Positions 1,482-63,716 of a DNA stretch of 64,000 bases are shown here, piece after piece. Within the stretch, counting starts at the first letter, position 1. The number at the start of each line of letters is the position of its first letter. The stretch spans positions 25,544,001 through 25,608,000 of the forward strand of contig NC_135901.1 of assembly GCF_964194155.1 (NCBI RefSeq). Direction: 5' to 3'. The position numbers and the translations under genes are program-made. The DNA comes from Cetorhinus maximus (taxonomy: Eukaryota). The notes beneath the pieces are model-generated. The model saw only the letters and a program-made list of their open reading frames with translations. It searched no databases and was not told where the DNA came from.

Positions 1482-1645
1482 AATGAAATCAGAATGCTGG
1501 AAATACTCAGTTCTGAAGAAGAATCATATTGGATTGGAAATGTTAAATCAGTTTCTCTCTCTTCACAGAAGCTGCCAAACCTGCTGAGGATTTCCAGAAC
1601 TTTCTGTTTTTATTTCAGATTTCCAGCATCCACTGTATTTTACTA
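1482..1645 (+). mobile_element. Penelope-terminal short repeat with a degenerate hammerhead core, partly inverted
   Basis: AGTT-CTGAAGA-AGAATCATATTGGATTG-GAAA-TGTTAAAT from 1509, followed by the family tail. A short opposite-orientation piece lies at 1482-1510. Confidence 0.7.
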
Positions 1646-9872: not shown

Positions 9873-10322
9873 ATGTCGGGCCCGGCAATTTCCAATGTGA
9901 AATTGTCAAAAGGATGTAGATTCCATGTGAGATCGGGTTGTTAAACGGACACTGTCTGTGCAACGTAACAGGATATTGTTTCAGAAACAAGTATTTCTGT
10001 AGATGCTTTTGGTGAGAAAGCGGGGAGGGTTGGGTAGAACAAACGAGAAGGCCAGTGATAGGTTAGAGGGCTGGAGAGATTAAATAACAAAGATGTCATG
10101 GAACAAAAGGCAATGGGAGTGGTAATGGTTGTATTAAAGGAACAAAGCACTGTAAGTTTTACTGTCAGAATACAGGACAAAAGACTGGTTCTGTTTTGAA
10201 GAAGAGTCATATTGGACTCGAAACATTAACTCTGTTTCTCGCTCCACAGAGGCTGCCTGACCTGCTGAGTTTTTCCACACTTTCTGTTTTTAGTTCAATG
10301 AACCATTAATATCTCCTCAGCA

Positions 10323-13300
10323 AAAGCAAAATACTGCAGATACTGGAAATCTGAAATACAAACAGAAAATGCTGGAAAAACTGAGCAGGCCAGCAGCACC
10401 TGTGGAGAGAAAAGCAGAGTTAACATTTTGAGTCCATATGACTTCTTCAGAGCTAAAGGAAGGTAGAAATGTGATGAAATTTATACTGTTTAGTGGGGGA
10501 GGGGGTGGGTGTGTGGTGGAGCAGGTGAAGCTGGATAGAAGGCCAGTGATAGGTGAGGGCAAAGGAGAAATTGACAAAGGTGTCATGAACAAAAAGACAT
10601 CGGGAGTGTTAATGGAAGTGGTAAGGGCCAAAAAAGGTGCTGATAGTGGAATAAAGATAACAAAGCAAAATGTGATAATAGCAGAACAAGGGTAAGCACT
10701 CTGAAAAGAACAACATGGAACAAGTAACAGGTAGCCCTTTTGGGGGTAGGGTGGTGGGAGGGGGCAGTGGTTGTGGATAAAGGATGGAAAAAGGGCTAAA
10801 AAGGGGATAAAACAATGAATAAAAATGAAAATAAGTGGATAAAAAATAAAAATACATTTAAAAAAGGGGGATTAAGAAAGGGTGAAGATAGAGGAGAGAG
10901 TTCATGGTCTGAAGTTGTTGATCTCAGTGTTAAGTCCAGAAGGCTGTAAGGTGCCTAATCAGAAGATACGGTGTTGTTCCTCCAGTTTGCAGTGGGCTTC
11001 ACTGGACATTGCAGCAGGCCAAGGATGGGCATTTGGGCATGAGAGCAGGATGATGTGTTGAAATGGAAAGTGACAGGAAGTTCTGGGTCATGCTTGCGGA
11101 CAGATCGAAGGTGTTCCGCAAAGCGGTCACCCAGTCTGTATTCGGTCTCCCCAGTGTAGAGGAGACCGCATTGGGAGCAGTGAATGCAGTAGACCAAATT
11201 GGAGGAGGTGCAAGTGAAGTGCTGCTTTGGGCCCTTAGACAGCGAGGAGGGAGAAGGTAAACGGGCAGGTGTTGCACCTTCTGCGATAGCATCGGAGGGT
11301 GCTGTGGGAGGGGGATGAGGTGTGGGGGTGATGGAGGAGTGTACCAGGGTGTCCCAGAGAGAATGGTCTCAACAGAATGTCGATGAGGGGGGGCGGGGGG
11401 GCGGTGGGGGGTGAAGGGAAGATGTGTTTGGTGGTGGCATCATGCTGGAGTTATGGAAATGGTGGAGGATGATCTTTTGAATGTGGAGGCTGGTGGGGTG
11501 AAAAGTGAGGACCAAGGGGGACCCTATCGTGGTTCTGGGAGGGAGGGGAAGGTGTGAGGGCAGAGGTGCCGGAGATGGGTCAGAAATGGTTGAGGGCCCT
11601 GTCAATCACAGATGGAGGGAAACCGTGGTTAATGAAGAAGGGAGATATGTCAGAAGCACCATTTGGAAAGTGGCATCATTGGAACAGATGCAACGGAGGT
11701 GAAGGAACTAATTGAATGGGATGGAGTCCTTACAGGAAGCAGGGTGTGAGGGGTTGTAGTCGAGGTAGCTGTGGGAGTCGGTGGACTTGTAGTGAATATT
11801 GGTGGACAGTCTATCACCAGAAACGGAGATAGAGAGGTCAAGGAAGGGAAGGGAAGTGTCAGAGATGGACCATGTGAAGGTGATAGAGGGATGGAAATTG
11901 AACGCAAAATAGATACATTTTTCCAGGTCCAGATGAGAGCATGAAGCAGCACTGAAACAGTCATCGATGTACCAGAAAAGGAGTTGTAGGAGGGAGCCTG
12001 AGTAGAATTGGAACAAGGAATGTTCCACATACCCCACAATGAGACAGGCATAACTGGGACCCACGGGGTACCCATAGCCACACCTTTTATTTGGAGGAAG
12101 TGAGACAAGTTTAAGGAGAAATAGTTCGATGAGAAAACAAGTTCAGCCAGATAGAGGAGAGTGGTGGTGGATGGGGATTGTTCGGGCCTATGTTCAAGGA
12201 AGAAGTGGAGAGCCCTCAGACCATCCTGGTGGGGGATGGAGGTGTAGAGGGATTGGACGTCCATGGTGAAGAGGAGGCGGTTAGGGCCAGGAAACTGGAA
12301 ATTGTTGATATGATGTAGGGTGTCAGAGAAATCGCGGATGTAGGTGGGAAGAGACTGGACAAGGAGAGAGAAAATGAAGCCAAGATCGGAAGAAATGAGT
12401 TCCATGGGGCAGGAACAGGCTGACACAATCGGTCTGCCAAGACAGTCCTGTTTGTGGGTTTTGAGATGGAGGTAGAAGTGGGCTGTCTGGTGTTGGGAGG
12501 AAAGACCTCCAGAGGAGATGAAGTCAATGACAGTCCTGGAAACAATGGCTTGATGTTCGGTGTTGGTGTCATGGCCCAGTGGGAGGTAGGAGGAAGTGTC
12601 TGAGACTTGGCGCTCAGCCTCTGTGAGGTAGAGGTCAGTACGCTAGACAACAACAGCACCACCCTTGTCAGCAGGTTTGATAACAAAGTCAGGGTTAGAC
12701 CTAAGAGAATGGAGTGCAGCAAGTTCAGAAGGAGACAGGTTAGAGTGGGTGAGAGGAGCAGAGAAATTGAGACAGCTGATGTCATGCCGACAGTTCTCAA
12801 TGAAAAGATCATGAGCAGGTAAGATGCCAGAGGGAGGGGTCCAAGTGGAGGGATAATACTGGAGCGGGTGAAAGGATCCATTGAACAGGGGGAGGACTCC
12901 TGCCCAAAGAAGTGAGCACAGAGATGAAGGCGGCAGAAGAAGAGTTCAGCATCATGCCGAGCCCGAAATTCATTAAGGTGAGGGTGTAAGGGTTTGAAAC
13001 AGAGTCCTTTGCTGAATATTGAACATTCAGCATCAGAGAGGGGAAGGTCAGAGCGTATGGTGAAAAAATGGCAAGGGCTGGGGTCAGAAGACAGGATGGG
13101 GTCAGAGGGATAGGAAGGGGTGGAGGGTCCTGGATGGGCATTGGTATCAATGAGTTGTTGGAACTTGTGTCCCTTAACACTTGAAAGGAAGAGAAAAAGT
13201 TTCATGTTAAGGCGTCAGATGAGACGAAGAATGAAATGAAACTGGGGACAAGGACAGACTTGAGATAGTGTGAGTAGCTGCTGCTGGAGAGAGAGAGAAA

Positions 13301-13541
13301 GAAAGTGCACATATGGCAGCACATGGCACTGAGTATGGATCTCAGGATGCAGAGAACACCACTCCGAGGAACGTTGTATGTCCCAGAGATACCTGTAATC
13401 CTGGATGGATTCTAAACATGAGGGATGGAACTTCAGTTGGAATCCATGCGAGATAAGTCGGAGACGGAGACAGTCGTTGAGAAAGGAAATATGGCTGTGA
13501 AAGCGAGTTTTGGTAAAAACCTTGTCAAACACTAGGAGGGA
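10323..13541 (-). mobile_element. Penelope-like element (RT + GIY-YIG endonuclease, frameshifted) with a 15-bp TSD
   Basis: RT motifs MDVQSLY, GVAMGT, MGPSYA and WYIDD. GIY-YIG motif VYCIHCSQCGLLYTGET..RLGDRFAEH. Flanked by AATATCTCCTCAGCA at 10308-10322 and 13542-13556. Confidence 0.92.
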
Positions 13542-13659
13542 AATATCTCCTCAGCACACTAGTCAATCAATCTTTCCACAAGGGTGTGTGTGCCTGAGAA
13601 GTTTCCAACTGGAAAACCTTTTCCATTCACCTCTTACATTACTACAGCAGATATACATT

Positions 13660-15072: not shown

Positions 15073-16015
15073 TCATACAGTTATACAGCACATAAACAGG
15101 CCCTTCGGCCCATCATGTACATGCTGGCCATCAAGCACCTATCTACTCCAATCCTATTTTCCAGCACTTGGTCAGTAGCCCTGTATGCTATGGCGTTTCA
15201 AGTTCTCATCTAAATACTTCCTAAATGTTGTGAGGGTTCCTGCCTCTACCACCCCCTCAGGCAGTGTGTTCCAGATTCCAACTGCCCTCTGGGTGAAAAG
15301 TTTTTCCCTCAAATCCCCTCTAAACCTCCTGCCCCTTACCTTAAACCTATGCCCCCTGGTTACTGACACCTGGGCTAAGGGGAAAAGTTTCTTCCTATCT
15401 ACCCTATCTATGCCCCTCATGATTTTGTGTACTTCTATCATGTCCCCCCTCAGTCTTCTCTGTTCTAAGGAAAACAACCCCAGCCTATCCAATCTCTCTT
15501 CATAGCTGAAATGCTCCAGCCCAGGCAACATCCTGGTGAATCTCCTCTGCACCCCCTCCAGTACAATCACATCCTTCCTATAGTGTGGTGACTAGAGCTG
15601 CACACAGTGCTCCAGCTGTGGCCTAACTAGCGTTTCATACAGCTCAAACATAACCTCCCTGCTCTTATGTTGTATGCCTCGACAAATAAAGGCAAGTACC
15701 CCATATTCCTTCTTAACCACATTATCTACCTGTGCTGCTGCCTTCAGGGATCTATGGACATGTACACCCATGTCCCCATGTGCTTCCTACTATTCATTGT
15801 GTATTCCCTAGCCGTGTTAGTCCTTCTAAAATGCATCACCTCACACTTCTCAGGATTAAATTCCATTTGCCACTGCTCTGCCCATTTTACCAGCCCATCT
15901 AAATCGTCCTGTAATCTAAGGCTTTCCTCCCCACTATTTACGACACCACCAATTTTCGTGTCATCTGTGAATTTATTGATCATACCTCCTATATTCAAGT
16001 CTAAATCATTTACAG
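15073..16015 (-). mobile_element. 5'-truncated vertebrate-type CR1 LINE
   Basis: ORFs 15744..15998 (KFTDDTKIGG) and 15172..15570 (RRLRGDMIEV). The element is absent from the paralogous site near 47265. Confidence 0.9.
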
Positions 16016-18803: not shown

Positions 18804-19384
18804 ATGAGGCTTCCACTGCTTCCCCAGCTATGTGCTGATGGTTTATCAGCTTTATCTTCCCATGGCCAGGAATTGTTTTTCCTGCACTAAAGATCGTTTC
18901 TCTTCCACTTTTGAGCTTATGTTGACCTTCAAATTGTGTCCCATTTTTATTCCACCAGATTAATTCTGCACACCCTGAAATGTTAACTCTGTTTCTCTTT
19001 TCACAGTTACTGTCTGATGTGCTGAGTATTTCTAGAATTTGCTCTTTTTATTTCAGATTTCCAGCAACTGCAATATTTTGCTATTATTTTATTGCAGGTG
19101 TTTCTCACAGAACCAAACCTAGAAACGCAGACGAACCAGTTAAGAGCCACTTTGTATCAGGGTGGACATTGGTTGCAAAGTTTGGTCGCTGGCCTCTAAT
19201 GTAGGTCTTTTTCATTGAGTTATAGGATCACTGAATGATGACAATACAGAAGGAGACTATTTAACCCATCATGTCCATGCTGGATTTCTGCAAGAGAAAA
19301 TCAGTTCATCTCACTCCCTTATCCTTTCTTTGCAGCCCAGCTTTTCCTCTTCAGGTGTTTATCCAATTCCCTTCCGGTGAGGGT

Positions 19385-20931: not shown

Positions 20932-21089
20932 AAGGATATTAGTGAACCAGTTGGGTTTTTATGACAGTCCAGCGGTTTTCATGGTCACTTTTTCCTTGTG
21001 CCGGCCTCACAAATTATCAGATTCATTCAGCTCAATTTCACAACCTGCCTTTCTGCTTTTATTTTTTCTGCTTTAAACTAATTTCACAG

Positions 21090-22229
21090 GGTATTAAAAG
21101 GGGAGGATTCGCCGTCAGGAAGCTCAAACATCATGCCAGGATCTGTTGCAGTTGCCCAATTTATCGTATCCTGAATATCATCAGATTTTTAACATGGAGG
21201 CAAAAAGCACCGTTCACAGTGGGGAGAAACCGTACACATGTTCAGTGTGTGGATGAGGCTTCAGCCAATCATCTGACCTGGCGAGACACAAGCGCAGTCA
21301 CACTGTGGAGAAATGGTGGAAATGTGGGGTCTGTAATGAGGGATTCAGATTCCCATCTGAGCTGGAAGCTCATCGACGCAGTCACACTGGGGAGAAGCCG
21401 TTCGCCTGCTCCGTGTGTGACAAAGGATTCATTCGGTCATCCCACTCTGCTGAAACACCAGCGAGTTCACACTGAGGAGAGACTTTTTAAATGCCCAGAT
21501 TGTGGGAAGTGCTATAAAAGTTCTGATGTGCTGATGTCCCATCAACGTGTTCACACTGACGAGAGACCTTTTAAATGCCGAGATTGCGGGAAGTGCTTTA
21601 AAAGTTCCAGTGCACTGATGTCCCATCAACGTGTTCACACTGACGAGAGACCGTTCAGATGTTCTTTTTGTGAGACTGGGTTTAGACAATCATCTCAACT
21701 TACTGTACACCAGCGGATTCACACGGGGGAGAGGCCATTTACCTGCATTGAGTGAGGAAGGGATTCACTTGGTTAACTGACCTCCTGACACACCAGTGCG
21801 TTCACACTGGGGAGAGACCATTCATCTGCCCCGTGTGTGAGAAGAGTTTCACTACCTTATCCAACCTGCTGATACATCAACGCACTCACACTGGGGAGAG
21901 GCCATTCACCTGTACTGAGTGGGAAAGGATTCATTCAGTCATCCACCTTGCTGATACACAAGCAAGTTCATACTGGGGAGAGGCCATTCACCTGCTCTGA
22001 GTGTGGGAAGGGATTCACCACCTTATCCAACCTGCTGACACACCAGCGAGTTCACACTGGGGAGAGGTCATTCACCTGCTTTGTGTGTGAGAAGAGATTT
22101 GCTCACTCATCCTCCCTGCTGAGACACAAGCGGGTTCACACTGGGGAGAGGCCATTCATATGGTCTATGTGTAATAAGAGATTTGCTCACTCATCCCACC
22201 TGCTGAGACACCAGTGGGTTCATGAATAA
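21090..22229 (+). pseudogene. C2H2-ZNF pseudogene (unit C)
   Basis: Acceptor AG at 21088-21089 and ATG at 21194 ([16 protein letters not shown]). In-frame TGA at 21254-21256 and frameshifts near 21445, 21752 and 21920. About 12 finger remnants are split over three frames. Confidence 0.85.
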
Positions 22230-22430
22230 CTATGGTGATGGAGTTTGCTGTTAATCAAATCTAGGATTGAACCATGTTCATTGGAGTCTGTTTCTGCTAA
22301 TGTTAATAAACTCCAGCCCACGTTTAGTGGTTAACATTGTGGATAAAAGTCAAATAAATCAGCTTTGTGTTAAGTACAGTGTACAAAAGGCTCCTTTACA
22401 ACTGTGTTTAGAATCAAGGAGAACAACAGT

Positions 22431-22647
22431 GAAATAAAAATGAAATGGTGTGGATGCAGCAAATCTAAAGTAAAAACAGAAAGTGCTGTAAAAACTCAGC
22501 CGGTCTGGCAGCATCTCTGGAGAGAGAAAAACCAAGTTAATGTTTCAGAACCGAAGAAGAGTCATCTTGGACTCAAAACGTTAATTCTGTTTCTCTCGCC
22601 ACTGATGCTGCCAGACCTGCTGAGATTTTGCAGCAATCTCTGTTTTT
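22431..22647. mobile_element. Foldback Penelope-terminal element with a central hammerhead-like core and a TSD
   Basis: Two arms in inverted orientation, flanked by AGAACAACAGT at 22420-22430 and 22648-22658. The empty paralogous site is at about 6116-6126. Confidence 0.8.
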
Positions 22648-23359
22648 AGAACAACAGTTAATGCTGGAAACGTGCTGTCAGATCAGAGATTGGTGTAAAA
22701 CTGTGACTGTTCCTGATTGAAAGTGAAATGGCAGGTTTAAGTTTCCATTCTGAAGATGACTGTGGTAATTATACTACAGCTACCATTTCAGGACAGTGTT
22801 AACTCATTTAAAATATACCTGTTTAAAATGTATTTATTAAAGTCTGCATTAAAATAGCAGATGGGGGAGTTCACAGGATAACTGCTGGGACAATTATACT
22901 ACAGACACTTGATCTCCAGATAAAGAAGCAGCTGCAGTGTGTTTCCAGGAATTACCCTGTTTTATCCTGAATTATCCTGTTTCCAGGAATTACCCTGTTT
23001 TATTGATGTGTGTGTGTGAGACACCAGGATAACTAAACATACCCAACTCGGAAAACCCATGGCAGTGTGATCCCGACAATTACTCTGGGATCACTCCCGC
23101 TGTGGAGCTCCACCACTGACCCTGCTGAAGGTTGTGGGCTCAGGGAGTGGGGTCTCCAGGAGTGGACTGTAAGAAAGATGAGTTTCAGTATCCTGATTAA
23201 TATATGGTGAAAAACTAGAGGAATCCTGACTGAGGAACTGTCTGGGGTTTTACCTGTCAGTGTAGGTCTAGGGGTGAATGATTCTCGACTCCCTGAACTG
23301 TCTGACATTGAACTCAGTTTAGAACAAAATGGATTCAGTGTCCAGGAGAATGGGGACAA

Positions 23360-27324: not shown

Positions 27325-28292
27325 TAATGACATAAGAAATAGGAACAGGAGTAGACCATTCGGCCCTGTGAGCCTGCTCCACCATTCAATAAGATCATGG
27401 CTGATCTTCTTGTATTTCAATCCTGATAACCTTTAATTCCCTTACCTAACAAGAATCTATTTACCTCTGCCTTAAAAATATTCAGTGACCCCGCCTCCAC
27501 CGCCTTCTGAGGCAGAGAATTCCAAAGTTGCACAACGCTCTGAGAGAAAAAAAATTCTCATTTCTGTCCTAAAAGGGCGACCCTAATTTTAAAACAGTGC
27601 TCCCTAGTTCTGGACTCACCCACAAAAGGAAACATCCTTTCGACGTCCACCTTGTCAAGGCCGTTCAGGATCTTGTATACTTCAATCAAATCACCCCTCA
27701 CTCTTCTAAACTCCAGTGGAAACAAGCCCAGTCTGTCCAACCTTTCCTCATAAGACAACCCACTCCTTCCAGGTATCAATCTAGTAAACCTCCTTTGAAC
27801 CACCTCCAATGTATTTCTATCCTTCCTTAAATAAGGAGACCAAAACTGTATACAGTATACGAGGTGCAATCTCACCAATGCCCTGTATAACTGAAGCATG
27901 AAATCCTTACATTTATGTTCAATTCCTCTTGTAATAAAGGATAGCATTCCATTAGCCTTCTTAATTACTTGCTGTACCTGCTTACTAACTTTTTGTGACT
28001 CATGTACTAGAACACCTAGATCCCTCTGCACCTCAGAATTATGCAGCCGTTCTCCATTTAAGTAATGCTCTGCTTTTTTGTTCTCCCTGCCAAAGTGAAC
28101 TTCACATTTTCCCACATTAAACTCCATTTGCCAGATCTTTGTCCACTCACTCAACCTACCTATATCCATCTGCAACCTCCTCATGTCCTCTTCACAACAT
28201 ACTTTCCTATCTATCTTTGTGTCCTCTGCAAATTTAGCTACCATGTCTTCACTCCCCTCATCTAAGTCATTGATGTAAATCGTAAAAAGTTG
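27325..28292 (-). mobile_element. 5'-truncated vertebrate-type CR1 LINE
   Basis: ORF 27558..28331 contains QLFTIYINDL, KFAEDTK, WQMEFNVGKCEV and RRVRGDLIEVYKIL. Confidence 0.9.
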
Positions 28293-28388
28293 AGACACTC
28301 TAGGAGGTACGCAGAGCTGGGACTTGTCCATGAGAGTGACTGAAGATATGAGAACTGAAATAATCTAGAGTTAGAAAGGAGAAAAGGT

Positions 28389-29813
28389 TCAGTTCTGGAC
28401 GTGATCCTCAGCATCAACAACTGAATCCAACTTTTCTGGTAACTTGTGAACTCGCTTATGTCTCAGCAGGTCGGATGACCGAGTAAATCTCTTCTCACAC
28501 ACGGAGCAGGTGAATGGCCTCTCCCCAGTGTGAATGCGTTGGTGTCTCAGCAGGTTGGATGAATTAGTGAATCCCTTCTCACACACAGAACAGGAGAACG
28601 GCCTCAACCCCATATGAATGCGGTGGTGTCTCAGCAGGTGGGTTGAATCAGGGAATCCCTTCCCACACAAGGAGCAGGTGAACGGCCTCTCCCTAGTGTG
28701 AATGCGCTGGTGTCTCACCAGATAAGATGAACAAGTGAATCCCTTCCCACACACAGAGCAGGTAAACGGCCTTTCTCCAGTGTGACTGCGCTGGTGTCTC
28801 ACCAGATGGAATGAATGAGCGAATCTCTTCCCACACGTGGAGCAGGTGAACGGCCTCACACCGGTGTGAACTCGCTCATGTACCTCAAGGTAGGACAAAC
28901 GAGAGAAACTCTTGCCACATACGGAGCAGATGAATGGCCTCTCCCCAGTGTGAACCGACTGATGTGTCCGCAGGTTGGCTGACTGAGTGAATCTTTTCCC
29001 ACACACGGAGCAGGTGAACGGTCTCTCTCCAGTATGAACTCGCTTGTGTATCAGAAGTTGGTTTGAACGAGTGAATCCCTTGCCGCATATGGAGCAGGTG
29101 AATGGTCTCTCCCCGGTGTGAATCCGTTGGTGCATCAGAAGGCTGGATGACCGAATAAAACCCTTCCCACACACGGAGCAGATGAATGGTCTCTCCCCTG
29201 TGTGACCACGCTTATGTGTCAGAAGGTGGAAAGAATGAATGAATCTTTTTCCACACACAGAGCAGGGGAACGGTCTCTCCCCAGTGTGAATGCACTGGTG
29301 CCTCAGCAGATCAATGCTTCTTTTAAAGGTTTTCTCACATTCGGAGCATTTAAAAGGTCTCTCATCTGAGTGAACCAGTTGGTGCTTAGTGTAGCTTGAA
29401 AACTGAGTGAATGCCTTCCCACACTGGGAGCAGCTGAATGGCCTGTCCTTGGTGTGAACTCGCTGGTGCTCAGTGAGATGCCCTGACTCACTGAACGACT
29501 CCCCACAGTGAGAGCAGCTGAACGGCCTCTCGTGTGTGTGAAGGAGCTGGTGCTCCGCGAGGCAGGAGGACAGCCTGAACCTCTTCCCGCAGTGGGAGCA
29601 GCTGAACGGTCTCTCATCAGTGTGAACTCGTTGCTGTTGGACCAGTTCCTCAGAGGTTTCAAAGCTTTTCCCAGAGTCAGAGCACTGAAGAGGCTTCTCA
29701 TCAATGTGATCCAGTTGGTGTGCCAGCAGGTTGGATGAACACATGAATTTCTTCCCACACACAGAGCAGGTGAACAGCCTCTCACTATTGTGAGCTCGCT
29801 GTCGTGTCAGCAT
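28389..29813 (-). CDS. C2H2 zinc-finger protein (unit D): 15 intact fingers plus 1 degenerate
   Basis: Uninterrupted ORF 28389..29840 with the first ATG at 29813 and TGERPF linkers. Acceptor ttttacAG at 30004-30003. C-terminal tail KLPEKLDSVVDAEDHVQN. Confidence 0.88.
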   Translation of the reverse strand: MLTRQRAHNSERLFTCSVCGKKFMCSSNLLAHQLDHIDEKPLQCSDSGKSFETSEELVQQQRVHTDERPFSCSHCGKRFRLSSCLAEHQLLHTHERPFSCSHCGESFSESGHLTEHQRVHTKDRPFSCSQCGKAFTQFSSYTKHQLVHSDERPFKCSECEKTFKRSIDLLRHQCIHTGERPFPCSVCGKRFIHSFHLLTHKRGHTGERPFICSVCGKGFIRSSSLLMHQRIHTGERPFTCSICGKGFTRSNQLLIHKRVHTGERPFTCSVCGKRFTQSANLRTHQSVHTGERPFICSVCGKSFSRLSYLEVHERVHTGVRPFTCSTCGKRFAHSFHLVRHQRSHTGERPFTCSVCGKGFTCSSYLVRHQRIHTRERPFTCSLCGKGFPDSTHLLRHHRIHMGLRPFSCSVCEKGFTNSSNLLRHQRIHTGERPFTCSVCEKRFTRSSDLLRHKRVHKLPEKLDSVVDAEDHVQN

Positions 29814-30400
29814 GTTTACCAGCTGTATCAATCCCTTCACACAGGAGGAGCAGGTGATCGGCCTCTCACCAGTTTCCAGCTGAGACGGTCAATTAAATCC
29901 CTTCAGATGTACAAATCTTCAGATCCCAATCAACCAGTTTACTCTGTCAGACGTGAGATTTGATTTGATATTCCTGTCTGCAAATCCTCCTCTTCTATTA
30001 CCCTGTAAAATAGGTTTACAAAGAATTACACAGAATATACATTACACAAACAGGCCATTTAGTCTATCTAGTCTGCACTGGAGTTTCTACTCCACACGAA
30101 TCTCCTCTCATTTTGCCAACCTCATCTCAGCCGTTCAGTTGATCTTTCTAATCCCTTCTCTCTCATGTTCTCATCTAGTTTCTATTTGAAAAAGTCTCAG
30201 GTATTTTTCTCAGCCACTTACTGTAATAGTGAGTTCCACATTTTAATTACTGCCTGAGGAAAGAAACATCTGAAGTTTTCCTGTTGGGTTTATTTGTAAC
30301 TATTGTGTACACAAGACCTCCAGTATTGAACAGACCAACAAGCGGAAACATTCTGTCCGCATCGACCTGCCCATCCTCATGAGGATTTTAAAGACCTAGA

Positions 30401-30657
30401 TAAAGCAAAATACTGCGGATGCTGGAAATCTGAAACAAAACAAAAATTGCTGGAAATAACTTAGCAGGTCTGACAGCACCTATGGAGAGAAAGACAGAGC
30501 TAATGTTTCGAGTCTGCAGGACTCTTAAGTTCTGAAGAATCATACGGACTTGAAACGTTAACTGTGTTCCTCTCCGCAGATGCTGTCAGACCTGCTGAGT
30601 TTTTCCAGGTATTTTTGTCTTTGTTTCGGATTTCCAGCATCCCAGTTTTTTGCTTTA
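30401..30657. mobile_element. Foldback (inverted dimer) of the Penelope-terminal unit
   Basis: Termini TAAAGCAAAA...TTTTGCTTTA with arms of about 115-130 bp. Hammerhead core on + at 30528-30563 and a partial core on - at about 30497-30526. Confidence 0.85.
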
Positions 30658-30679
30658 ATCTCAGAAATGCACAATATTC

Positions 30680-31610: not shown

Positions 31611-32116
31611 AATGAGCTCCACATCCTCAGCACTCTCCAGTTCAGGAAAAGAAAAATATTGGGGATGCTGGAAACCTGAATGAAAAACAGAAAGTGCTGG
31701 AATTTTCAGCAGATCTGATTGCGTCTGTGGAGAAAGAAACATAGTTTACATGTATTTCAGCCTGTAACCTTTCATCAGAACCGCACTGTGTCTGTGCATC
31801 ACTGTGATTTTCAATCCACTGAAGCAGCCATTGAAAACTGCCCTCCACTTCACTGGAAGTACAAGGGACAAGTTTGTAGGTGTGGCCTAATGTACAATAC
31901 ATGATGGTATTTCAAAAGAGAGCCCATGTACCAATAGATATTTACATTAATTAACCAAACCTCTTAACCCTGAAGTCTGCTTAAATAATTCACCTCTTTA
32001 ACAAAGTCAGGACAATACAGCTCACACACACTCTGTCTCCAGGTTTCTTGCCAAATGAGTTCACCTGCCATTTTATAGCTTTCTCTCTCTTCTATGCAGA
32101 CCATGTTAAACAAACA

Positions 32117-34317
32117 AAAACAAAAGTGCCTGGAAAAACTCAGCAGGTCTGACAGCATCTGTGGAGAGGGATACAGTTGACGTTTCGAGTCCGTATGATC
32201 CTTCATCAGAACTAAGACATATAGAAATGAGATGAAATATAAGCTAGTAGAAGGGGGTGGGACAGGAGAGCTAGATAGGGGGCCAGTGATAGGTGGAAGG
32301 CAAGAAGAGACTGCCAAAGATGTCATAGACAAAAGGACAAAGGGGTGTTGACGGTGGTGATATTATCTAAAAGATGTGCTAATGGGGACATTAAGGGAAA
32401 CAAGCTAGTGGCAGATGGCCCTAATGCGGGTGGGGTGGGGGGAATGGATTGAAATGGGCTAAAAGCTGGAGATGAAACAATAGATCGAAAAACTTTTAAC
32501 ATAGGAGGGAAGAGAAAAAAAAGTTGCAAAAATAAATAAATAAATTATAAATTATTGGAAAAGGGGGGATCGGAAAGGGGGTGGGGATGGAGGAGAGAGT
32601 TCATGATCTGTAATTATTGAACTCAATATTAAGTCCAGAAGGCTGTAGAGTGCCTAGTCGGAAGATGAGGTGCTGTTTCTCCAGTTTGCTTTGAACATTA
32701 CAGTAGGCCAAGGACAGACATGTGGGCATGAGAGGAGGGTGGTGTGTTGAAATGGCATGCGACAGGGAGGTCTGGGTCATGCTTGCGGACAGACCGAAGG
32801 TGATCCACAAAACAGTTACCCAGTCTGCGTTTGGTCTCTCCAATGTAGAGGAGACAGCATTGGGAGCAGCGAATGCAGTAGACTAAATTGAGGGAAGTGC
32901 AAGTGAAATGCTACATCACTTGAAAGGAGTGTTTGGGCCCTTGGACGGTGAGGAGAGGTGAAGTAAAGCGGCAGGTGTTGCACCTTCTGCGGTTGCATGG
33001 GAAGGTGCCATGGGAGGGGGTTGAGATGTAGGGGGTGATGGAGGAGTGGACTAGGGTGTCCCGGAGGGAATGATCCCTGCGGAAAGCTGCCAGGGGGGTA
33101 AAGGGAAGGTGTGTTTGGTGGTGGCATCATGCTGGAGTTGTCGGAAATGGCGGAGGATGATCCTTTGAATACTGAGGCTGGTGGGGTGATAAGTGAGGAC
33201 AAGGGGGACCTTATCATGGTTCTGGGAGGGACAGGAAGGTGTGAGGGCGGATGTGCGGGAGATGGGCCGGACACGGTTGAGGGGCCTGTCAACCACCGTG
33301 GGTGGAAAACCTCGGTTAAGGGAGAAGGAAAACATGGCAGAGGAACTGTTTTGGAAAGTGGCATCATCAGGACAGATGCGACGGAGGCGAAGGAACTGAG
33401 AGAATGGGATGGAGTCCTTACAGGAAGTGGGGTGTGAGGAGCTGTAGTCGAGGTAGCTGTGGGAGTCGGTAGGCTTGTAATGGATATTGGTGGACAGTCT
33501 ATCACCAGAAATTAAGACAGAGAGGTCAAGGAAGGGAAGGGAAGTGTCAGTGATGGACCACGTGAAAATGATGGAGGGGTGGAAATTGGAAGCAAAATTA
33601 ATAAATTTTTCCAGATCCAGATGAGAGCATGAAGTGGCACCGAAGCAGTCATCGATGTACCAGAGAAAGAGTTGTGGGAGGGGTCCTAAGTAGGACTGGA
33701 ACAAGGAATGTTCCACATAGCCCATAAAGAGGCAGGCATAACTGGGGCCCATGTGGGTACCCATAGCCACACCTTTTATTTGGAGGAAGTGAGACGAACT
33801 TAAGGAGAAATTGTTCAGTGGGAGAACAAGTTCAGCCAGACGGAAGAGAGTGGTGGTGGATGGGGATTGTTCGGGCCTCTGTTCAAGGAAGAAGCGGAGA
33901 GCCCTCAGACCATCACGGTGGGGGATGGAGGCGTATAGGGATTGGACATCCATGGTGAAGAGGAGACGGTTGGGGCCAAGGGACTGGAAATTGTTGATAA
34001 GATGTAGGGCGTGAGAGGAATCGCGGATGTAGGTGGGAAGAGACTGGACAAGGGGAGAGAGAATGGAGTCAAGATAGCAAGAAATGAGTTCTGTGGCGCA
34101 GGAACAGGCTGACACAATCAGTCTGCCGGGACAGTCCTGTTTGTGGATTTTGGGTAGGAGGTAGAAGCGGGCCATCCGAGATTGGGAGACTATGAGGTTG
34201 GAAGCTGTGGAGGGAAGATCTCCAGAGGAGATGAGGTCAGTGACAGTCCTGGAAACAATGGCTTGATGTTCAGTGGTGGGGTCATGGTCCAGGGGGAGGT
34301 AGGAGGAAGTGTCTGCG
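32117..34317 (-). mobile_element. 5'-truncated Penelope-like element with a 13-bp TSD
   Basis: 374-aa ORF 33051..34175 contains FYLLPKIHK, MDVQSLY, GVAMGTHMGPSYA, WYIDD and FLDL. A GIY-YIG remnant lies near 32600-32900. TGTTAAACAAACA is at 32104-32116 and 34318-34330. Confidence 0.93.
32175..32213 (-). ncRNA. Minimal type I hammerhead ribozyme motif in the Penelope terminus (best-preserved copy)
   Basis: RNA reads AGUU-CUGAUGA-A-GGAUC-AUACG-GACUC-GAAA-CGUC-AACU. Stem I is AGUU/AACU, stem II has 4 of 5 pairs, stem III is the palindrome ACGU, and the GUC triplet predicts a cut after 32179. Confidence 0.72.
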
Positions 34318-35109
34318 TGTTAAACAAACACATGTCACCCTTTGAACTGCCATTTCTTGAGGCGTCCTAGCAATTTCAAAAGCCTAGAATGTTAATAACC
34401 TTATCCTTACAGCTTTAATCTTCCCCAAGCTAAAAATTATCTCTAAAATATTGATATGAATCATGAACAAGATCGTTATGAAAATATTTGCTTCATTGTT
34501 TCAACACTTCAAAATAATGGTTGTTTTCCTATGTGACTGTGTGTGTTTGTTCAATGAAATGTTTGTAAAAGGTAATGGTGGAGAAAGATTGAGAGTTTTT
34601 AGCATAGGACAGAAGTGAAATGGGTCAACAGAGAAGCAACACATTTCCAATTAGAGCAGAAATTGATGACACATACAGAATGACTCTTCCACCTGTAGTT
34701 TCATCACGAGTTCCATTACCATCGTTTTTGCCTTGCATCCTCATCCCCTTTGTTATTTAATCTCTCCCAATCACAAACCTTCTCTTTCGTTATTTCCCCA
34801 TCCTCCCTTTTCTCTGCCTGTGAACTTGTTCTGATGGAAGTTCAGTGTCCGGAACCATTAACTGTTTCTCTCTCCACAGACTCTCAGTCTGACCTGCTCA
34901 GTATTCCCAGCATTTCCTTTGGTCTGACCTGCTCAGTATTCCCAGCATTTCCTTTTTGTGAATAAGACTGAGAGTTGTATGGTCAGTTCCCCTCGGTCTG
35001 GAATGCTTGGCACTGATTTCCTTAGTGCAACGGTCATAATGTTTGCTTTACATGTGAAATTACTGGTTTGATCCTATATGGAAACGTTGTGTTTCAATTG
35101 TGAAGGACA

Positions 35110-35611: not shown

Positions 35612-36330
35612 AAAATAAAATACTGCAGATGCAGCAATTCTGAATTTAAAACAGATAATGTTGGAAACACTCAGCAGGTCAAACAGCCTCTATGGAGAGG
35701 GCAGCAGCATCAATGTTTAAGGTGAGTGAACCTTATCAAAGCTTGAAGAATTTAAAGATGTAATTGTTCACAATCAAGTACAGAGCCTGGGAAAAGAGCG
35801 GGGAAGAGAAGAAAGAACATTGTTAATGGAAGGTAGCAGTGATTAAATGACAAAGGGGAGGATAATGTCACACAAAATTGTGTGATAATGAGACAAGTAA
35901 ATAAACTAATGGGACAAGTGAACAAATAAAATTCAGATCCAGAGGGAGTATAAATGATAACAGCAGAACCATTACCAGCATCTACTGTCTGAAATAATGG
36001 GAGTGGTGATTATGATCAGTGCAGGAGGCTGAGGACAGAGAGCTCAGACTGGGAATGGGGTGGAGAATTAAAATAGCAAACGGCTGGATGCTCAGGAACA
36101 TGCTTGAAGATTGAATGGCGATGTTCCACAAAGCATCTATCCAATCTTGATTTAGTCACCTTAGTATGGAAGGGGTCACATCATGAGCAGTGAATACATG
36201 ATCCTAAATTGAAAGTAGTACAAATAATTTGCTGTATCACTCAGAAAATGTATTTGTGGCCCTGGAACATGGGAACTGAGGAGGTGAAAAGGTGGTTGCT
36301 GCATCTGCTGTGCTTGTATCAAATGTACTG
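35612..36330 (-). mobile_element. Old, decayed Penelope 3' region
   Basis: Starts with the family terminus AAAATACTGCAGATG...CTCAGCAGGTC and stays loosely colinear with 10323-11280. Confidence 0.6.
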
Positions 36331-36549: not shown

Positions 36550-36770
36550 GAAATAAAACCAGAAAATGCTTCAAATCCTCACCATGCAGCAGATTGGGAA
36601 ACATGGTTAACATTTCAGCTCTGTGCACTGACACAGTGCAGCTCTGATGAAAGGTTGAAGACCTGAAATGTAAATTATATTTCCCCTCTGTAGACAATCC
36701 CAGTTCTGCAGAAATTTCCAGAATTCTCTGTTTTTATTTCAGATTTACAACACCTGCAGTATTTTTTTTA
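36550..36770. mobile_element. Degenerate foldback Penelope-terminal element with a hammerhead core
   Basis: CTGATGA (36644-36650)-A-AGGT-TGAAG-ACCT-GAAA (36665-36668)-TGTA lies between inverted family arms. Confidence 0.6.
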
Positions 36771-38582: not shown

Positions 38583-38991
38583 TCTGGTTTAGTTATAGAA
38601 ATCTAAAATCCCTCTCCTTAGCCACTCCCTCACCCTCTTTCTCTCTCCCTTCCCAAAGAGGACAGTTTCTTGTGTAGGTCTAGACTGGGTGGTAGGATCC
38701 CTTTCCTGAAGGACATTAGTGAATCAGTTGGGTTTTTACGACAATCCAGCAGTTTTCATGATCAGTTTTTCCTAGTGCCGGCCCCACAAATTATCAGATT
38801 TATTCAGCTCCAATTCACGATCTTGTGTTTTTGTGGGTTCTCTCTCACTCCCTTTTTTCTATTTTAAATCACTTTCAGAGGGAATTAGAAGGCGAGGATT
38901 TGCATTCGGGAAACACCAAATAAATATCATATCAGGATCTGACAGAGAGTCGCCCAATTTGTCATAACCTTTATATCATTAGATTTTGAAC

Positions 38992-39860
38992 ATGGAAGGA
39001 AAAAGCACCATTCACAGTGGAGAGAAACCATACATTTGTTCTGTGTGTGGACGGGGCTTCAACCAATCATCTGACCTGTCAGAACATAAATGTTGTCACA
39101 ACAGGGAGAAGCCGTGGAAATGTGGGGAATGTGGGAAGGGATTCAATTATCCAGTTGAACTGGAAACTCATCGTCGCAGTCACACTGGGGAGAGACCATT
39201 CACTTGCTCCAAGTGTGGGAAGGGATTCACTCTGTCATGCAACCTGTTGGCACACCAGCGAGTTCACACTGTTGAGAGACCTTTTAAATGCCTAGACTGC
39301 GGGAAGTGCTATAAAAGTCCCGTGGAACTGATGCGTCATCAACGTGTTCACACTTTGAGAGACCGTTCAGGTGCTCTCACTGCGGCACTGGGTTCAGGCA
39401 ATTATCTGACCTCACCGTGCACGAATGAGTTCACACTGGAGAGAGTCCATTCACCTGCACGGAGTGTGGGAAGGGATTCACTCGGTCATCATGCCTGCTG
39501 ATGCACCAGCGAGTTCACACTGGGGAGAGACCATTCACCTGCCTCAATTGTGGGAAGAGATTCACTAATTCATCCACCCTGCTGAAACACCAGCGAGTTC
39601 ACACTGGGAAGAGGCCATTCACCTGTTCCAAGTGTGGGAAGGGATTCACTCAGTCAACTGACCTGCTGGAGCACCAGCGAGTTCACACTGGGGAGAGACC
39701 GTTCACCTGCTGCAACTGTGGGAAGAGATTCACTCAGTCGTCAACCCTGCTGACACACCAGCGAGTTCACACTGGGGAAAAGCCATTCACCTGCTCTGTG
39801 TGTAAGAAGGGGTTTTCTCACTCATCCACCCTGCTGAGACACCAGCGAGTTCACAAGTAA
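38992..39860 (+). pseudogene. Split C2H2-ZNF gene (unit E): 4 fingers, then a frameshift and a stop, then further fingers
   Basis: ATG at 38992 ([14 protein letters not shown]). A 1-nt deletion near 39355 and a TGA near 39426 in the finger frame. Downstream ORF 39501..39860 has 4 complete fingers. Confidence 0.8.
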
Positions 39861-42232: not shown

Positions 42233-43149
42233 GGTATTAGGAGGGGAAGACTTACAGATGGGAAACGAAAACCAATTACCAAAATCTGACAGAGTCACTC
42301 GATTCATCAGGGCCTGAATATCATCGGTCTCTGAACATGGAAAGAGAAATGTTTGTCTGTGGGAAAAGATTTCAAACATCAATGTGACCGGAAAAGCACC
42401 GAGACACACACACCTGAGTGTGAGTGTTCCAGTGTTCCGGTACACAGCCTGAAAAGAATCACACCATTCACAGCAAGGAGAAAATGTACACGTGTTCTGT
42501 GTGTGGACGAAGTTTCAGCTGATCTTCCAAGTTGGAGAGACAAAAGGATACCATCACCATGGAGAAACCATGGAAATGTGGGGACTGTGGGAAAGGATTC
42601 AAATACCAATTGTGGCTGGAAACTCAGTGACACATTAACACTAGGGAGAGACCATTCCCCTGCTCCTTGCGTGGGAAGGGATTCACTCGGTCATCCGACC
42701 TTCTGAGACACCAACTCACTCACACTGAGGAGAGGCTGTTCACCTGCTCCATGTGTGGGAAGGGATTCATTAATTCATCAGATCTTCGGACACACCAGAG
42801 AGTTCACACTGGGGAGAGGCCATTCACCTGCTCTGCCTGTGGGAAGGGATTCACTCAGTCAGCCCACCTGCTGGCCCACCAGCGAGTTCACACTGGAGAG
42901 AGGCCATTCACCTGCTCCACCTGTGGGAAGGTATTCTCTCGGTCATCCCACCTCACTGCACACCAAATGGTTCATACAGATAAGCGACCTTTTAAATGTT
43001 CTGACTGTGAGAAGAGCTTTAAATGCAGGTACCAGTTGCTAACACACCAACGTACACACACTGGGGTGAGGTTGTTCACCTTCTCCGAGTTTGGGAAAGG
43101 ATTCACTCATTCATCTCACCTGGTGAGACACCAGCGAGTTCAGAATTGA
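42233..43149 (+). pseudogene. C2H2-ZNF probable pseudogene (unit F)
   Basis: Acceptor tttacAG|GGTATTAG near 42232 and ATG at 42559 (MEKPWKC). Premature TGA at 42628-42630. Four intact fingers plus degenerate ones follow in ORF 42667..43149. Confidence 0.75.
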
Positions 43150-43554: not shown

Positions 43555-44510
43555 CCATAAGAGGCCATAAGACATAGGAGCAGAAATTAGGCCATTTGGC
43601 GCATCGGGTCTGCTCCGCCATTCAATCATGGCTGATAAGTTTCTCAACCCCATTCTCCCACCTTTGCCCCGTAACCTTTGATCCCCTTACCAATCAAGAA
43701 CCTATCTATCTCGGTCTTAAATACACGCAATGACCTGGCCTCCACAGCCTTCTGTGGCAATGACTTCCATAGATTCACCACTCTCTGGCTAAAGAAGTTT
43801 CTCCTCATCTCTGTTCCAAAAGGTCTTCCCTTCACTTTGAGGCTGTGCCCTTGGGTCCTAGTCTCTCCTACTAATGGAAACATCTTCCCCACATCCACTC
43901 TATCCAGGCCTTTCAGTGTTCTGTAAGTTTCAAACAAATCCCCCCTCATCCTTCTAAACTCCATCGAGTATAGACCCAGAGTCCTCAAACGTTCCTCATA
44001 TGTTAAGCCTTTCATTCCTGGGATCGTTCTCGTGAACTTCCTCTGGACCCTCTCCAGGGCCAGAACATCCTTCCTGAGGTACGGGGCCCAAAATTGCTCA
44101 CAATATTTTAAATTTGGTCTGACCAGAGCCTTATAAAGCCTCAGCAGCACATCCCTGCTTTTATATTCTAGTCCTCTCGAAATAAATGCCAACATTGCAT
44201 TTGCCTTCCTAACTACTGACTCAACCTGCAAGTTAACCTTAAGAGAATCCTGGACTAGGACTCCCAAGTCCCTTTGCACTCCAGATTTCTGAATTCTCTC
44301 CCCATTTAGAAAATAGTCTATGCCTCTATTCTTCCTACCAAAGTGCATGACCTCACATTTCCCCACGTTGTATTCCATCTGCCACTTCTTTGCCCATTCT
44401 CCTAATCTGTCCAAATCCTTCTGCAGCCTCCCCACCTCCTCAATACTACCTGTCCCTCCACCTATCTTTGTATCATCTGCAAACTTAGCCAGAATGCCCT
44501 CAGTTCCTTC
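43555..44510 (-). mobile_element. Relatively young 5'-truncated CR1 LINE
   Basis: Uninterrupted 263-aa C-terminal ORF2 (43644..44435), preceded by KFADDTKIGG. Confidence 0.92.
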
Positions 44511-44639
44511 ACTAATTCACAATTCGCTAATATAGGATTTGTTTCTCTCAACCTAGAACATTATATGGACCTTCCCAATTAACCCCCCAGACTGATCCTG
44601 TTTAACAATATTTTTAACATGACTTCATCTCCCATTGAA

Positions 44640-46454: not shown

Positions 46455-46900
46455 GTGGATGTTAGAAATCTGAAATAAAAACAGAAGGTTCTGGAAAAAC
46501 TCAGCAGGTCTGGCAGCAGCTGTGGAGAGAGAAACAAAGTTAATATTTCGCGTACAGTATGACTCTTCAGAACTGAAGAGAGGTAGATATACAATGGGTT
46601 TTATGCTGTTGAAAATGGGAAGAGTCAGGTAGAATAAAAGGGAAGATCAGCGATAGGTTAGAGGGTGGGAGAGATTAACTAACAATGGTGTAATTGAAAT
46701 AAAGGCAAAGGGAGTGGAAATTGTTGTAATAAAAGAAACAAAACAGAGTAAGTTTTAACGTCAGAATAAATGATAAAAGTCCATCCAGTTCAGTTCTGAA
46801 GAAGAATCATATTGGACTCTAAATGTTAACTCTGTTTTCTCTCCAATAATGCTGCCAGACCTGTTGAGTTTTTCCAGTACTTTCTGTTTTTATTTCAGTG
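46455..46900. mobile_element. Penelope 3' remnant with an inverted terminal unit
   Basis: Family terminus on - (46455-46580, core CUGAAGAGUC...CGAAA) and on + (46790-46900). The right half is paralogous to 10010-10295. Confidence 0.75.
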
Positions 46901-50050: not shown

Positions 50051-50579
50051 CGGGGTGGTGTGTGACTTGGAGAGGAACTTGAAGAGATGGTGTTCACATA
50101 TACCTGCTACCCTGGTCCTTCTAGATGGTGGAGGTTAGCGGTTCAGGAGATTTTGTCAGAGTTATGGTCAAGCAATTGATACATAAAATCCCTCTCCAAT
50201 CCCTGCATCTCTTATTCTCTCTCTCTCTCTCTCCCCTTCCATCGTGGCCAGAGTCTTGTGTAGGTCCAGACTGGGTGGCAGGTTCCTTTCCCTGAAGGAC
50301 ATGAGTGAACCAGTTGGGTTTTTACGACAATCCAGCAACTTTCATGGTCACTTTTCCCAAGTGTCAGTCCCACAAATTATCAGGTTCATTCAGTTAAATT
50401 TCACAATCTGCTTTTGTGTTTTTCTGGGTTTTCTCTAACTCGCTTTTTCCTGTTTTAAATTCAATTCAAAGGGAATTAGAAGGGGAGGTCTTGCAGTCAG
50501 GAAACTGAAGCAAATATCACATCAGGATATGATGGAGTCGCCCAATTTATCGTAACCTGAACATCATCAGATTTTGAAG

Positions 50580-60735: not shown

Positions 60736-61094
60736 GGTGCCGGTGTCCTTGTGTCTCTCCAGGTTGGATGATCAGTTGAAGCCTCGTCCACACACAGAAC
60801 ACGTGTACAGTTTCTCCCCACTGTGAATGGTGTGATGTTTTTTCAGGCTGTGTAACTGGTTAAAGCTCTTTCTACATTCAGTTCACTGGAACACACTCAC
60901 TCGAGTGTGTGTGTCTCAGTATTTTTCCAGTCAGACTGAAGTTTGAAATGTTTTCCCATAGATAAAACAGACAAGCATTTCTCCTTGCACATTGAAATGC
61001 TGATGATATCCAGGTCCTGATGAATTGAGTGACACTGTCAGATCAGCAGATACTTTCCTCTCCATAAATTCTCTCCTTCTAATCCTCTGTAAAA

Positions 61095-62014: not shown

Positions 62015-62155
62015 ATAAAGGCAAAACACTGCGGATGCTGGAAATCTGAAATAAAAACAAAAAATGCTGGAAAATCTCAGCAGGTCTGACAGCATTTGTG
62101 GAGAGAAAGACAGAGTAAACATTTTGAGTCATTATGACTCTTCTTCAGAGCTAGT
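62015..62155 (-). mobile_element. Solo Penelope-terminal (hammerhead-bearing) unit inserted in a SINE, with a 9-bp TSD
   Basis: CCTTACCTG at 62006-62014 and 62156-62164, where the SINE consensus has it once. The core on - is AGCU-CUGAAGA-A-GAGUCA-UAA-UGACUC-AAAA (G12 mutated). Confidence 0.85.
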
Positions 62156-63574: not shown

Positions 63575-63716
63575 AGACTCACTCTTCTTCAGAGCCAAAC
63601 GGACTCGAACAGTTAACTCTGTTTCTCACTCCATGAATGCTGTCAGACCTGCTGAGTTTTTCCAGCATTTTCTGTTTTGATTTCAAATTACCAGCATCTG
63701 CAGTATTTTGCTTTTA
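63575..63716 (+). mobile_element. Penelope-terminal unit (truncated core)
   Basis: GGACTCGAACAGTTAACTCT...GACCTGCTGAGTTTTTCCAGC...CAGTATTTTGCTTTT. Confidence 0.75.

What the first reader, a model, noticed from the sequence alone, without database searches (positions are those of the whole stretch)
32175..32213. Minimal hammerhead ribozyme family in Penelope termini, with over a dozen full or partial copies in 64 kb
Seen: the roughly 140-bp repeat that ends both Penelope elements contains AGUU-CUGA(U/A)GA-A-[GAGUC...GACUC]-GAAA-CGU(C/U)-AACU. Stem II varies while keeping pairing (GAGUC/GACUC at about 10204 and 22559, AGGU/ACCU at 36652). Copies with full or partial cores lie at about 1509, 10193, 10420, 22550, 30528, 31750, 32175, 34828, 36641, 46545, 46792, 62115 and 63600. 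Established: minimal type I hammerheads with a short palindromic stem III occur in Penelope-like pseudo-LTRs and are thought to cleave as dimers. Inference: the copy at 32175-32213 may still be active, while most others carry CpG-type decay in the core.
Basis: partly seen in the sequence, partly recalled or inferred. Interest (0 to 1): 0.7.

Follow-up and report, generated by a model that had tools for sequence, protein, structure and literature searches.

The report
Penelope hammerhead relics; young lineage mutated
These motifs are damaged, likely dead leftovers of a known small RNA motif, predicted to cut itself, at the ends of a very abundant jumping gene; the less ordinary point is that the gene's youngest intact copies have replaced one normally fixed core letter of the motif, which likely slows the cutting.

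Summary
The motif is real: 17 copies in the window, 31,002 exact matches in the genome against 0 in the control. It is the known minimal type I hammerhead in the pseudo-LTR of a Neptune-type Penelope element. Genome-wide, 85% of exact matches lack core A6 (U or C instead). These lineages look youngest, include intact 917-aa elements and later gained a compensatory stem II pair (10,062 against 369). Copies tend to begin at the first bases of the motif, about 30 nt behind a TATA-like box, not at the cut site; one copy is fused to 28S rRNA exactly at the cut site. Best reading: a slow, rarely cutting, likely protein-helped ribozyme; no cleavage was measured. The scan found the A6 loss before, on other DNA of this genome.

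The parts
32175..32213 (-). Hammerhead copy of the finding: helix I 4 bp, CUGAUGA, extra A, stem II with G-U and an A-C mismatch, GAAA, palindrome ACGU, C17; predicted cut after 32179
32117..34317 (-). Penelope element B, 5'-truncated and frameshifted (RT part, CxxC linker, GIY-YIG part, 3' UTR, hammerhead, short tail); 13-bp target duplication at 32104-32116 and 34318-34330
10323..13541 (-). Penelope element A, nearly full length but without the 5' hammerhead; 15-bp target duplication at 10308-10322 and 13542-13556
10418..10454 (-). Hammerhead copy ending element A; 2-nt deletion, G12>A, C15.2>T
10192..10231 (+). Copy with C3>T and G16.2>A; element A sits in its tail
1509..1548 (+). Copy with broken stem II and C15.2>T
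18949..18988 (+). Partial copy: 3' half and tail only
22430..22660 (.). Head-to-head pair of stubs (22535-22573 -, 22547-22586 +), both damaged
30400..30660 (.). Head-to-head pair of stubs (30498-30538 -, 30528-30563 +); the + copy keeps all core letters but has lost 3 nt of stem II
31743..31782 (-). Copy of the old AGGU-stem family, stem III destroyed
34827..34863 (+). Decayed copy (A9>G, A15.1>C)
35706..35743 (-).
36640..36676 (+). Copy of the old family, stem II AGGU/ACCU, C15.2>T and A at position 17
46538..46574 (-). Copy with 3-nt deletion and CpG decay
46792..46831 (+). Copy with G12>T and C15.2>T
62114..62152 (-). Copy with G12>A and C15.2>T
63580..63618 (+). Partial copy: 3' half and tail only

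Best explanation
The motif is the minimal hammerhead at the end of a Neptune-type Penelope retrotransposon, and the window's copies, including 32175-32213, are damaged and likely inactive leftovers of a ribozyme that likely cuts only slowly and rarely even in working elements. Shown: a full element is hammerhead, one ORF (RT, CxxC linker, GIY-YIG), hammerhead, 3.3 kb apart; insertions run through the uncut site and end at two points in the tail behind it; copies then lose G12 and the stem III palindrome by CpG decay. Inferred: the element's RNA likely starts at the first bases of the 5' hammerhead (TATA-like box about 30 nt upstream, initiator-like TCAGTT, pile-up of copy starts). The two hammerheads of one RNA would pair through the ACGU palindrome and helix I, probably helped by the element's protein, and would cut a small share of RNAs. 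Reverse transcription starts behind the cut site and needs that site whole, so weak cutting likely costs the element little; the youngest lineages replaced A6 by U, then C, while keeping the other core letters and repairing stem II, which likely slows the ribozyme further without abolishing it.
For: Architecture: 11 of 20 long-ORF loci and 2 intact elements carry two direct hammerheads about 3.3 kb apart. Protein: RVT_1 and GIY-YIG matches and a CX4CX2C linker. Stem II covaries between subfamilies: AGGUC/GACCU 300 matches, GGGCC/GGCUC 10,062, mismatch control 369. A6 states: 4,589 A, 7,307 C, 19,106 other (mostly U) of 31,002. Age order from flanks only: nearest-neighbour distance AA 0.112, AT 0.082, TT 0.064, CT 0.053, CC 0.038; two intact C6 elements are 99.5% identical. 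Twelve core positions did not change along the consensus ladder (rough P 0.003-0.03). 50 of 62 young copies end 59-70 or 105-117 nt behind the motif and 13 of 62 start within 11 nt before it, matching the two internal RT starts of the anole element (PMC11167929). A6C lowers Mg2+ cleavage in two other hammerheads (PMC7151607, PMC3088659). One copy starts exactly at the cut site fused to 82 nt of sense 28S rRNA.
Against: No cleavage was measured. Copies starting at the cut site are not enriched: 26 in younger families and 6 in old ones, no more than at neighbouring control positions. The rRNA fusion is one case and template switching could make it. In all 9 copies folded, other folds beat the double hammerhead (by 7-13 kcal/mol in the 8 family copies). 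Copy-level covariation is weak (21-39 of 500 shuffles reach three measures, 315-317 of 500 the other two; helix I has no two-sided change) and the subfamily changes are few events. Helix I may be kept as an initiator rather than as a helix. In 40 random copies A6 is still the majority (25 A, 9 U, 6 C), so the 85% applies to undamaged copies only. The RNA start was not seen: all runs were contigs.
Confidence: 0.58

Rival explanations
1. In the young U6/C6 lineages the motif no longer cuts at all; it is kept as promoter (initiator) and as a folded handle for the element's protein.
For: A6 changed twice in the spreading lineage. No excess of copies starting at the cut site. In the anole element catalytic mutants did not affect insertion in vitro and no reads ended at the cut site (PMC11167929). 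Naiad elements spread without canonical hammerheads (PMC8557442).
Against: C3, U4, G5, G8, A9, G12-A14, the palindrome and a non-G position 17 are all kept. A6C hammerheads elsewhere still cleave with Mn2+ or high Mg2+ (PMC7151607).
Confidence: 0.22
2. The hammerheads cut efficiently in the cell at both ends, the unit RNA is ligated into a circle, and the circle is the template; the A6 change is neutral because protein or Mn2+ compensates.
For: Model proposed in PMC4209133. Partial tandems of 150-1,570 bp in front of full elements fit a circular or tandem template. The rRNA fusion at the cut site fits a ligatable 5'-OH end.
Against: Copy starts pile up at the predicted RNA start upstream of the cut, which a circle would not mark. 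Minimal hammerheads cleave poorly even as dimers (PMC4209133); 1 of 9 Xenopus dimers cleaved (bioRxiv 10.64898/2026.07.22.740005).
Confidence: 0.15
3. The copy at 32175-32213 is itself an active ribozyme that cuts a host transcript, for example that of the zinc-finger gene at 28389-29888 on the same strand.
For: All core letters, the palindrome, C17 and helix I are intact; same strand as the zinc-finger frame.
Against: Stem II is not predicted to form; no intact partner on that strand nearby (31743 has lost stem III); the element is about 12% diverged from its nearest relatives in hand; transcription through the site was not shown.
Confidence: 0.04

Closest known systems
Minimal hammerheads (min-HHR) in pLTRs of metazoan Penelope-like elements (Cervera and De la Pena 2014, PMC4209133; parts 1-2 of 4 read, 2 of 3 supplements searched)
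   Same: Type I layout, 4-bp helix I, extra base between A9 and 10.1, G10.1-C11.1 in most subfamilies, palindromic 15.2-16.2, mostly solo copies of truncated elements, pairs on opposite strands.
   Different: Stem II is 5 bp; the youngest subfamilies carry U6 or C6. The core variant named in the parts read is U3-A8, not a change at position 6.
Poseidon element PAc of the green anole (Frangieh et al. 2024, PMC11167929; parts 1-2 of 4 read)
   Same: Hammerhead in the pLTR, two copy ends in a tail behind it, uncut RNA appears to be the template.
   Different: Here the element is Neptune-type, the ORF starts about 150 nt behind the motif rather than inside it, and the core lacks A6 in young copies.
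Neptune-clade Penelope-like elements (Craig et al. 2021, PMC8557442; Arkhipova et al. 2013, PMC3846280; passages read)
   Same: RT then CX2-5CxxC linker then GIY-YIG, 5' truncation, partial tandems, inverted 5' copy, optional tail, TATA and initiator-like motifs in the pLTR.
   Different: Clade placement rests on the linker motif; no tree against reference elements was built.
A6C hammerhead of phage Bcep176 (PMC3088659, PMC7151607; passages read)
   Same: CUGCUGA core.
   Different: A single phage ribozyme; here tens of thousands of copies in a spreading animal retrotransposon, plus U6 and C6C7 forms.
Non-LTR retrozymes of vertebrates (bioRxiv 10.64898/2026.07.22.740005; parts 1-3 of 5 read)
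   Same: Hammerheads derived from Penelope pLTRs; reported in one cartilaginous fish.
   Different: The window's copies are dispersed stubs and element ends, not head-to-tail arrays.

Membership tests
Minimal type I hammerhead of PLEs | Core CUGANGA and GAAA with NUH site | tested here: met
   Met in 4,589 exact genomic matches and in 2 of 17 window copies.
Minimal type I hammerhead of PLEs | Invariant A6 in the youngest subfamilies | tested here: not met
   26,413 of 31,002 exact matches lack A6; 0 of the first 100 GGGCC matches have it.
Minimal type I hammerhead of PLEs | Extra base between A9 and 10.1; palindromic 15.2-16.2 without loop 3 | tested here: met
   A at the extra position in 36 of 40 random copies; ACGU palindrome in every subfamily consensus.
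Minimal type I hammerhead of PLEs | Compensatory changes in stem II | tested here: met
   Three stem II forms; C-G 10,062 against C-A 369; 3 of 5 pairs with two-sided change.
Minimal type I hammerhead of PLEs | Compensatory changes in helix I | tested here: inconclusive
   Only one-sided G-U changes, 0 of 4 pairs two-sided; C at 2.2 breaks a pair in older copies.
Minimal type I hammerhead of PLEs | Located in both pLTRs of a full element | tested here: met
Minimal type I hammerhead of PLEs | Self-cleavage as a dimer | not testable with these tools
   Only indirect genomic footprints: no excess at the cut site, one rRNA fusion.
Neptune-type Penelope-like element | Single ORF with RT and C-terminal GIY-YIG | tested here: met
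   917-aa ORF in L236: RVT_1 E 2e-6, GIY-YIG E 4.5e-4, both just under Pfam's cut-offs.
Neptune-type Penelope-like element | CX2-5CxxC linker between RT and endonuclease | tested here: met
   CPRRRCNTC in L236; definition from PMC8557442.
Neptune-type Penelope-like element | Placement in the Neptune clade by RT tree | not tested
   No reference sequences in hand.
Neptune-type Penelope-like element | Partial tandems, inverted 5' copies, optional tail | tested here: met
   Inverted arm in 39 of 85 loci; two end points.
Non-LTR retrozyme | Head-to-tail array of hammerhead units | tested here: not met
   No such array among the 17 window copies; only two short two-unit stubs among young loci (L252, L253).

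The most novel reading that the evidence does not exclude
A currently active vertebrate retrotransposon has tuned its own ribozyme down by replacing the invariant A6 with U and then C, turning it into a Mn2+- or protein-gated cutter at the very 5' end of its mRNA; the series A6, U6, C6 in one genome is a natural allelic series for asking what Penelope hammerheads are for.
Probability: 0.3. Interest if true: 0.65.

Novelty: new variant of a known kind. Interest (0 to 1): 0.4.

Why it matters
The finding as written is known biology in one more genome. What the hammerheads of Penelope elements do is still open: they may process the RNA, be dispensable, or only ride along (PMC8557442, PMC11167929). 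This genome offers a dated series of core variants, intact 917-aa elements with a C6 core, and a predicted RNA start at the motif, so the question can be tested directly. No paper describing U6 or C6 cores in Penelope hammerheads came up in four searches, but Lunse et al. 2017, the paper most likely to list such variants, was not held.

Tried and rejected
Rfam has no model that finds these motifs: 0 hammerhead matches at E up to 5. A programmed frameshift between RT and endonuclease, suggested by many top hits ending at one place, is a selection artefact: the query carried that frameshift, 33 of 40 query-selected copies had the short C-tract, but the in-frame length was the commonest in other copies (15 of 41), and intact ORFs exist. 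An intron acceptor overlapping the cut site was dropped because its AG is lost in young subfamilies. A 5' UTR intron before the ATG was not supported: no matching joint in 4 runs (thin cover) and its acceptor AG is absent in L236. An excess of copies starting at the cut site was looked for and not found; 11 of 20 fetched cases were inversions through helix I. Public runs were contigs only and could not show RNA starts, ends or strand. Rfam did not recognise the 82-nt rRNA piece in place; it was identified through its tandem genomic source. Lunse et al. 2017 was not held and is cited from a review's passage (PMC6765202) only. One supplement of PMC4209133 could not be searched and figures are not held, so core variants shown there may be missed.

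Full report
Observation. The window is part of a 4.0-Gb genome and holds a C2H2 zinc-finger cluster. That it is a shark-like genome is my recalled impression of the repeats and is not tested. A profile of the tail alone gave 18 window hits and none in the reversed window; in 60 random 10-kb stretches it gave 50 hits and none in the control, so the window is about three times richer than average and the genome holds roughly 330,000 such ends (extrapolated). Rfam does not detect the motif. A full-core pattern matches 2 of 17 copies, 30528 and 32175, against 0.025 per shuffle.

The two elements. Element A (10323-13541) and element B (32117-34317) are minus-strand, 5'-truncated, frameshifted insertions with 15- and 13-bp target duplications. 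Each has one hammerhead, at its 3' end. In full elements elsewhere the motif stands at both ends: 11 of 20 long-ORF loci had two direct copies 3,288-3,334 bp apart, with the ORF starting about 150 nt behind the 5' copy. Of 20 regions chosen by hammerhead spacing, 2 (L236, L237) have an unbroken 917-aa ORF with RT, a CX4CX2C linker and GIY-YIG. The linker marks the Neptune type (PMC8557442, passages); no tree was built. An inverted arm lies within 1.5 kb in 39 of 85 loci (some loci are two arms of one insertion), as described for this class (PMC3846280, passages).

The copy of the finding. 32175-32213 keeps helix I, CUGAUGA, the extra A, GAAA, the ACGU palindrome and C17. Its stem II reads GGAUC/GACUC, one change from the GGGUC of a sister copy (L100). 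Stem II alone folds at 0.0 kcal/mol against -3.9, and the modelled double hammerhead at +2.3 against -10.1. There is no partner in its element, and the nearest same-strand copy (31743) has lost stem III. It is the best-kept copy in the window but likely inactive. CpG decay is real: in 40 random copies (of 45 aligned; 5 dropped for under 24 of 39 identities) the two CpGs carried 9-13 transitions per position, hitting G12 and the palindrome.

Covariation. On 114 of 132 copies chosen without regard to the motif's letters (18 with gaps or odd lengths left out), 89% of cells pair; 3 of 5 stem II pairs show two-sided change, 0 of 4 in helix I, and the shuffles are reached 21-39 times in 500 for three measures and over 300 times for two, so this test alone is weak. 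Subfamily counts are clearer: an old family with AGGUC/GACCU (300 matches, 88 of the first 100 with A6), the main GRGUC/GACUC group (31,002), and GGGCC/GGCUC (10,062) against 369 for the mismatched form. These are a few inherited events, not thousands.

Loss of A6. Of the 31,002 matches, 4,589 have A at core position 6, 7,307 have C, and 19,106 have another base, U in 71 and G in 2 of the first 100 listed. Of the first 100 GGGCC matches 99 have C and none A. Exact matching favours young copies: among 40 random copies 25 have A, 9 U and 6 C, and no window copy belongs to these lineages. A tree from flanks only (92 of 217 copies, those with a long 3' UTR) is a ladder AA, AT, TT, CT/CC, with median nearest-neighbour distances 0.112, 0.082, 0.064, 0.053 and 0.038 (group sizes differ and copies are related, so the P of 3e-7 is only a guide). 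Inverted arms are 77% identical in the old family (3 loci), 91% in A6 (13), 92% in C6 (18) and 99% in GGGCC (5). The two intact elements have CUGCUGA at both ends and are 99.5% identical. So the compensatory stem II pair arose after A6 was lost. Twelve other core positions did not change along the consensus ladder, where flank rates predict 4-6 changes (rough P 0.003-0.03). The A-to-T change is also in contigs of four organism labels. A6C is known from phage Bcep176, where it lowers Mg2+ cleavage and spares Mn2+ cleavage (PMC7151607, PMC3088659; passages).

Footprints in copy ends. Of 62 young copies, 21 end 59-70 nt and 29 end 105-117 nt behind the motif, 3 run on into the ORF, 2 hit a locus edge and 7 end elsewhere. 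This matches the two internal RT starts shown for the anole element (PMC11167929) and means the template was whole, or re-joined, at the cut site. Thirteen of the 62 (9 loci) begin within 11 nt before helix I, none at 12-27 nt, and 10 at 28-66 nt. Genome-wide, 39 junction matches at helix I against 4 at 11 nt upstream give about a fourfold excess after correcting for filter pass rates, with wide error. All eight subfamily consensuses have a TATA-like box about 30 nt upstream, and the young ones read TCAGTT across the start; the RNA start is inferred, not seen. Copies starting exactly at the cut site are not enriched: 26 in younger families against 222 at a control offset, of which about a fifth of the first 100 were true junctions by eye, and 6 against 36 and 14 in old families. 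Of 20 fetched cases 11 are inversions through helix I and 4 join foreign DNA. One of the four (L226) is 82 nt of sense 28S rRNA, 96% identical to the tandem rDNA and joined with no shared bases at the cut site; it is the only rRNA piece in 302 sequences (1.49 Mb). Ligation of a 5'-OH end before reverse transcription, as reported for U6/LINE-1 chimeras (PMC6789731, listing only), would explain it; template switching would too. Its subfamily could be A6 or U6.

Mechanism. Shown: architecture, subfamily series, copy ends, decay. Inferred: transcription from the pLTR starting at the motif, pairing of the two hammerheads of one RNA, help from the element's protein (other folds beat the double hammerhead by 7-13 kcal/mol, and the anole ribozyme cut only with protein), rare cleavage, and further slowing by U6 and C6. 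I put this at 0.58, a non-cutting handle at 0.22, an efficient cutter with a circular template at 0.15, and an active 32175 copy at 0.04.

Novelty. Minimal hammerheads in Penelope pLTRs, the extra base, solo and inverted copies and weak dimer cleavage are in PMC4209133. The position-6 series did not come up in four paper searches; Lunse et al. 2017 could not be read. I reached the A6 and RNA-start readings before looking at the scan's notes, which report the same on other DNA of this and other genomes; two notes from other genomes report an excess at the cut site, which I did not find here. Verdict: an ordinary window, a new variant at family level, interest 0.4.

Noticed in passing
L226:1531-1612 (G000:C7:130059706-130059787): 82 nt of sense 28S rRNA fused exactly at the predicted hammerhead cut site of a Penelope tail; single case among 20 fetched.
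   Followed up: partly
window 10016-10322 and 10323-13556: Element A inserted into the tail of an older plus-strand copy, giving a tail-to-tail pair with a 15-bp target duplication.
   Followed up: partly
window 22430-22660 and 30400-30660: Palindromic head-to-head stubs made only of hammerhead and tail; the same form is common genome-wide, often joined through helix I.
   Followed up: partly
L236:4324-7074 and L237:2477-5227: Intact 917-aa Penelope ORFs between two identical C6 hammerheads, 99.5% identical to each other: a recently active subfamily.
   Followed up: yes
window about 33065-33095 (-) and 11400-11450 (-); many loci: A C-tract between RT thumb and linker is very variable in length (16-53 nt between anchors) and frameshifts many copies.
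   Followed up: yes
L084:1709-1800 and sister loci: Young subfamilies have a strong splice-donor-like site in the tail and a weak acceptor before the ATG; no spliced joint seen and the acceptor is lost in L236.
   Followed up: partly
window 5117-5989, 20946-22400, 28389-29888, 38983-39860, 42335-43149, 50556-51281, 59758-60771: Cluster of C2H2 zinc-finger frames on both strands; the window is about three times richer in Penelope ends than random DNA.
   Followed up: no
window 36013-36319: A piece about 62% identical to the endonuclease region of elements A and B, on the same strand: an older Penelope family.
   Followed up: no
window 13752-14333, 15172-15591, 27558-28364, 43644-44516 and 1917-2865, 8193-9162: Several broken LINE-type RT pieces (CR1/L2/RTE-like by recalled motifs).
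   Followed up: no
L084:1625-1668, L193, L236: In C6 subfamilies helix I can extend from 4 to 6 bp (UCAGUU with AACUGA or GACUGA), possibly offsetting the core change.
   Followed up: no
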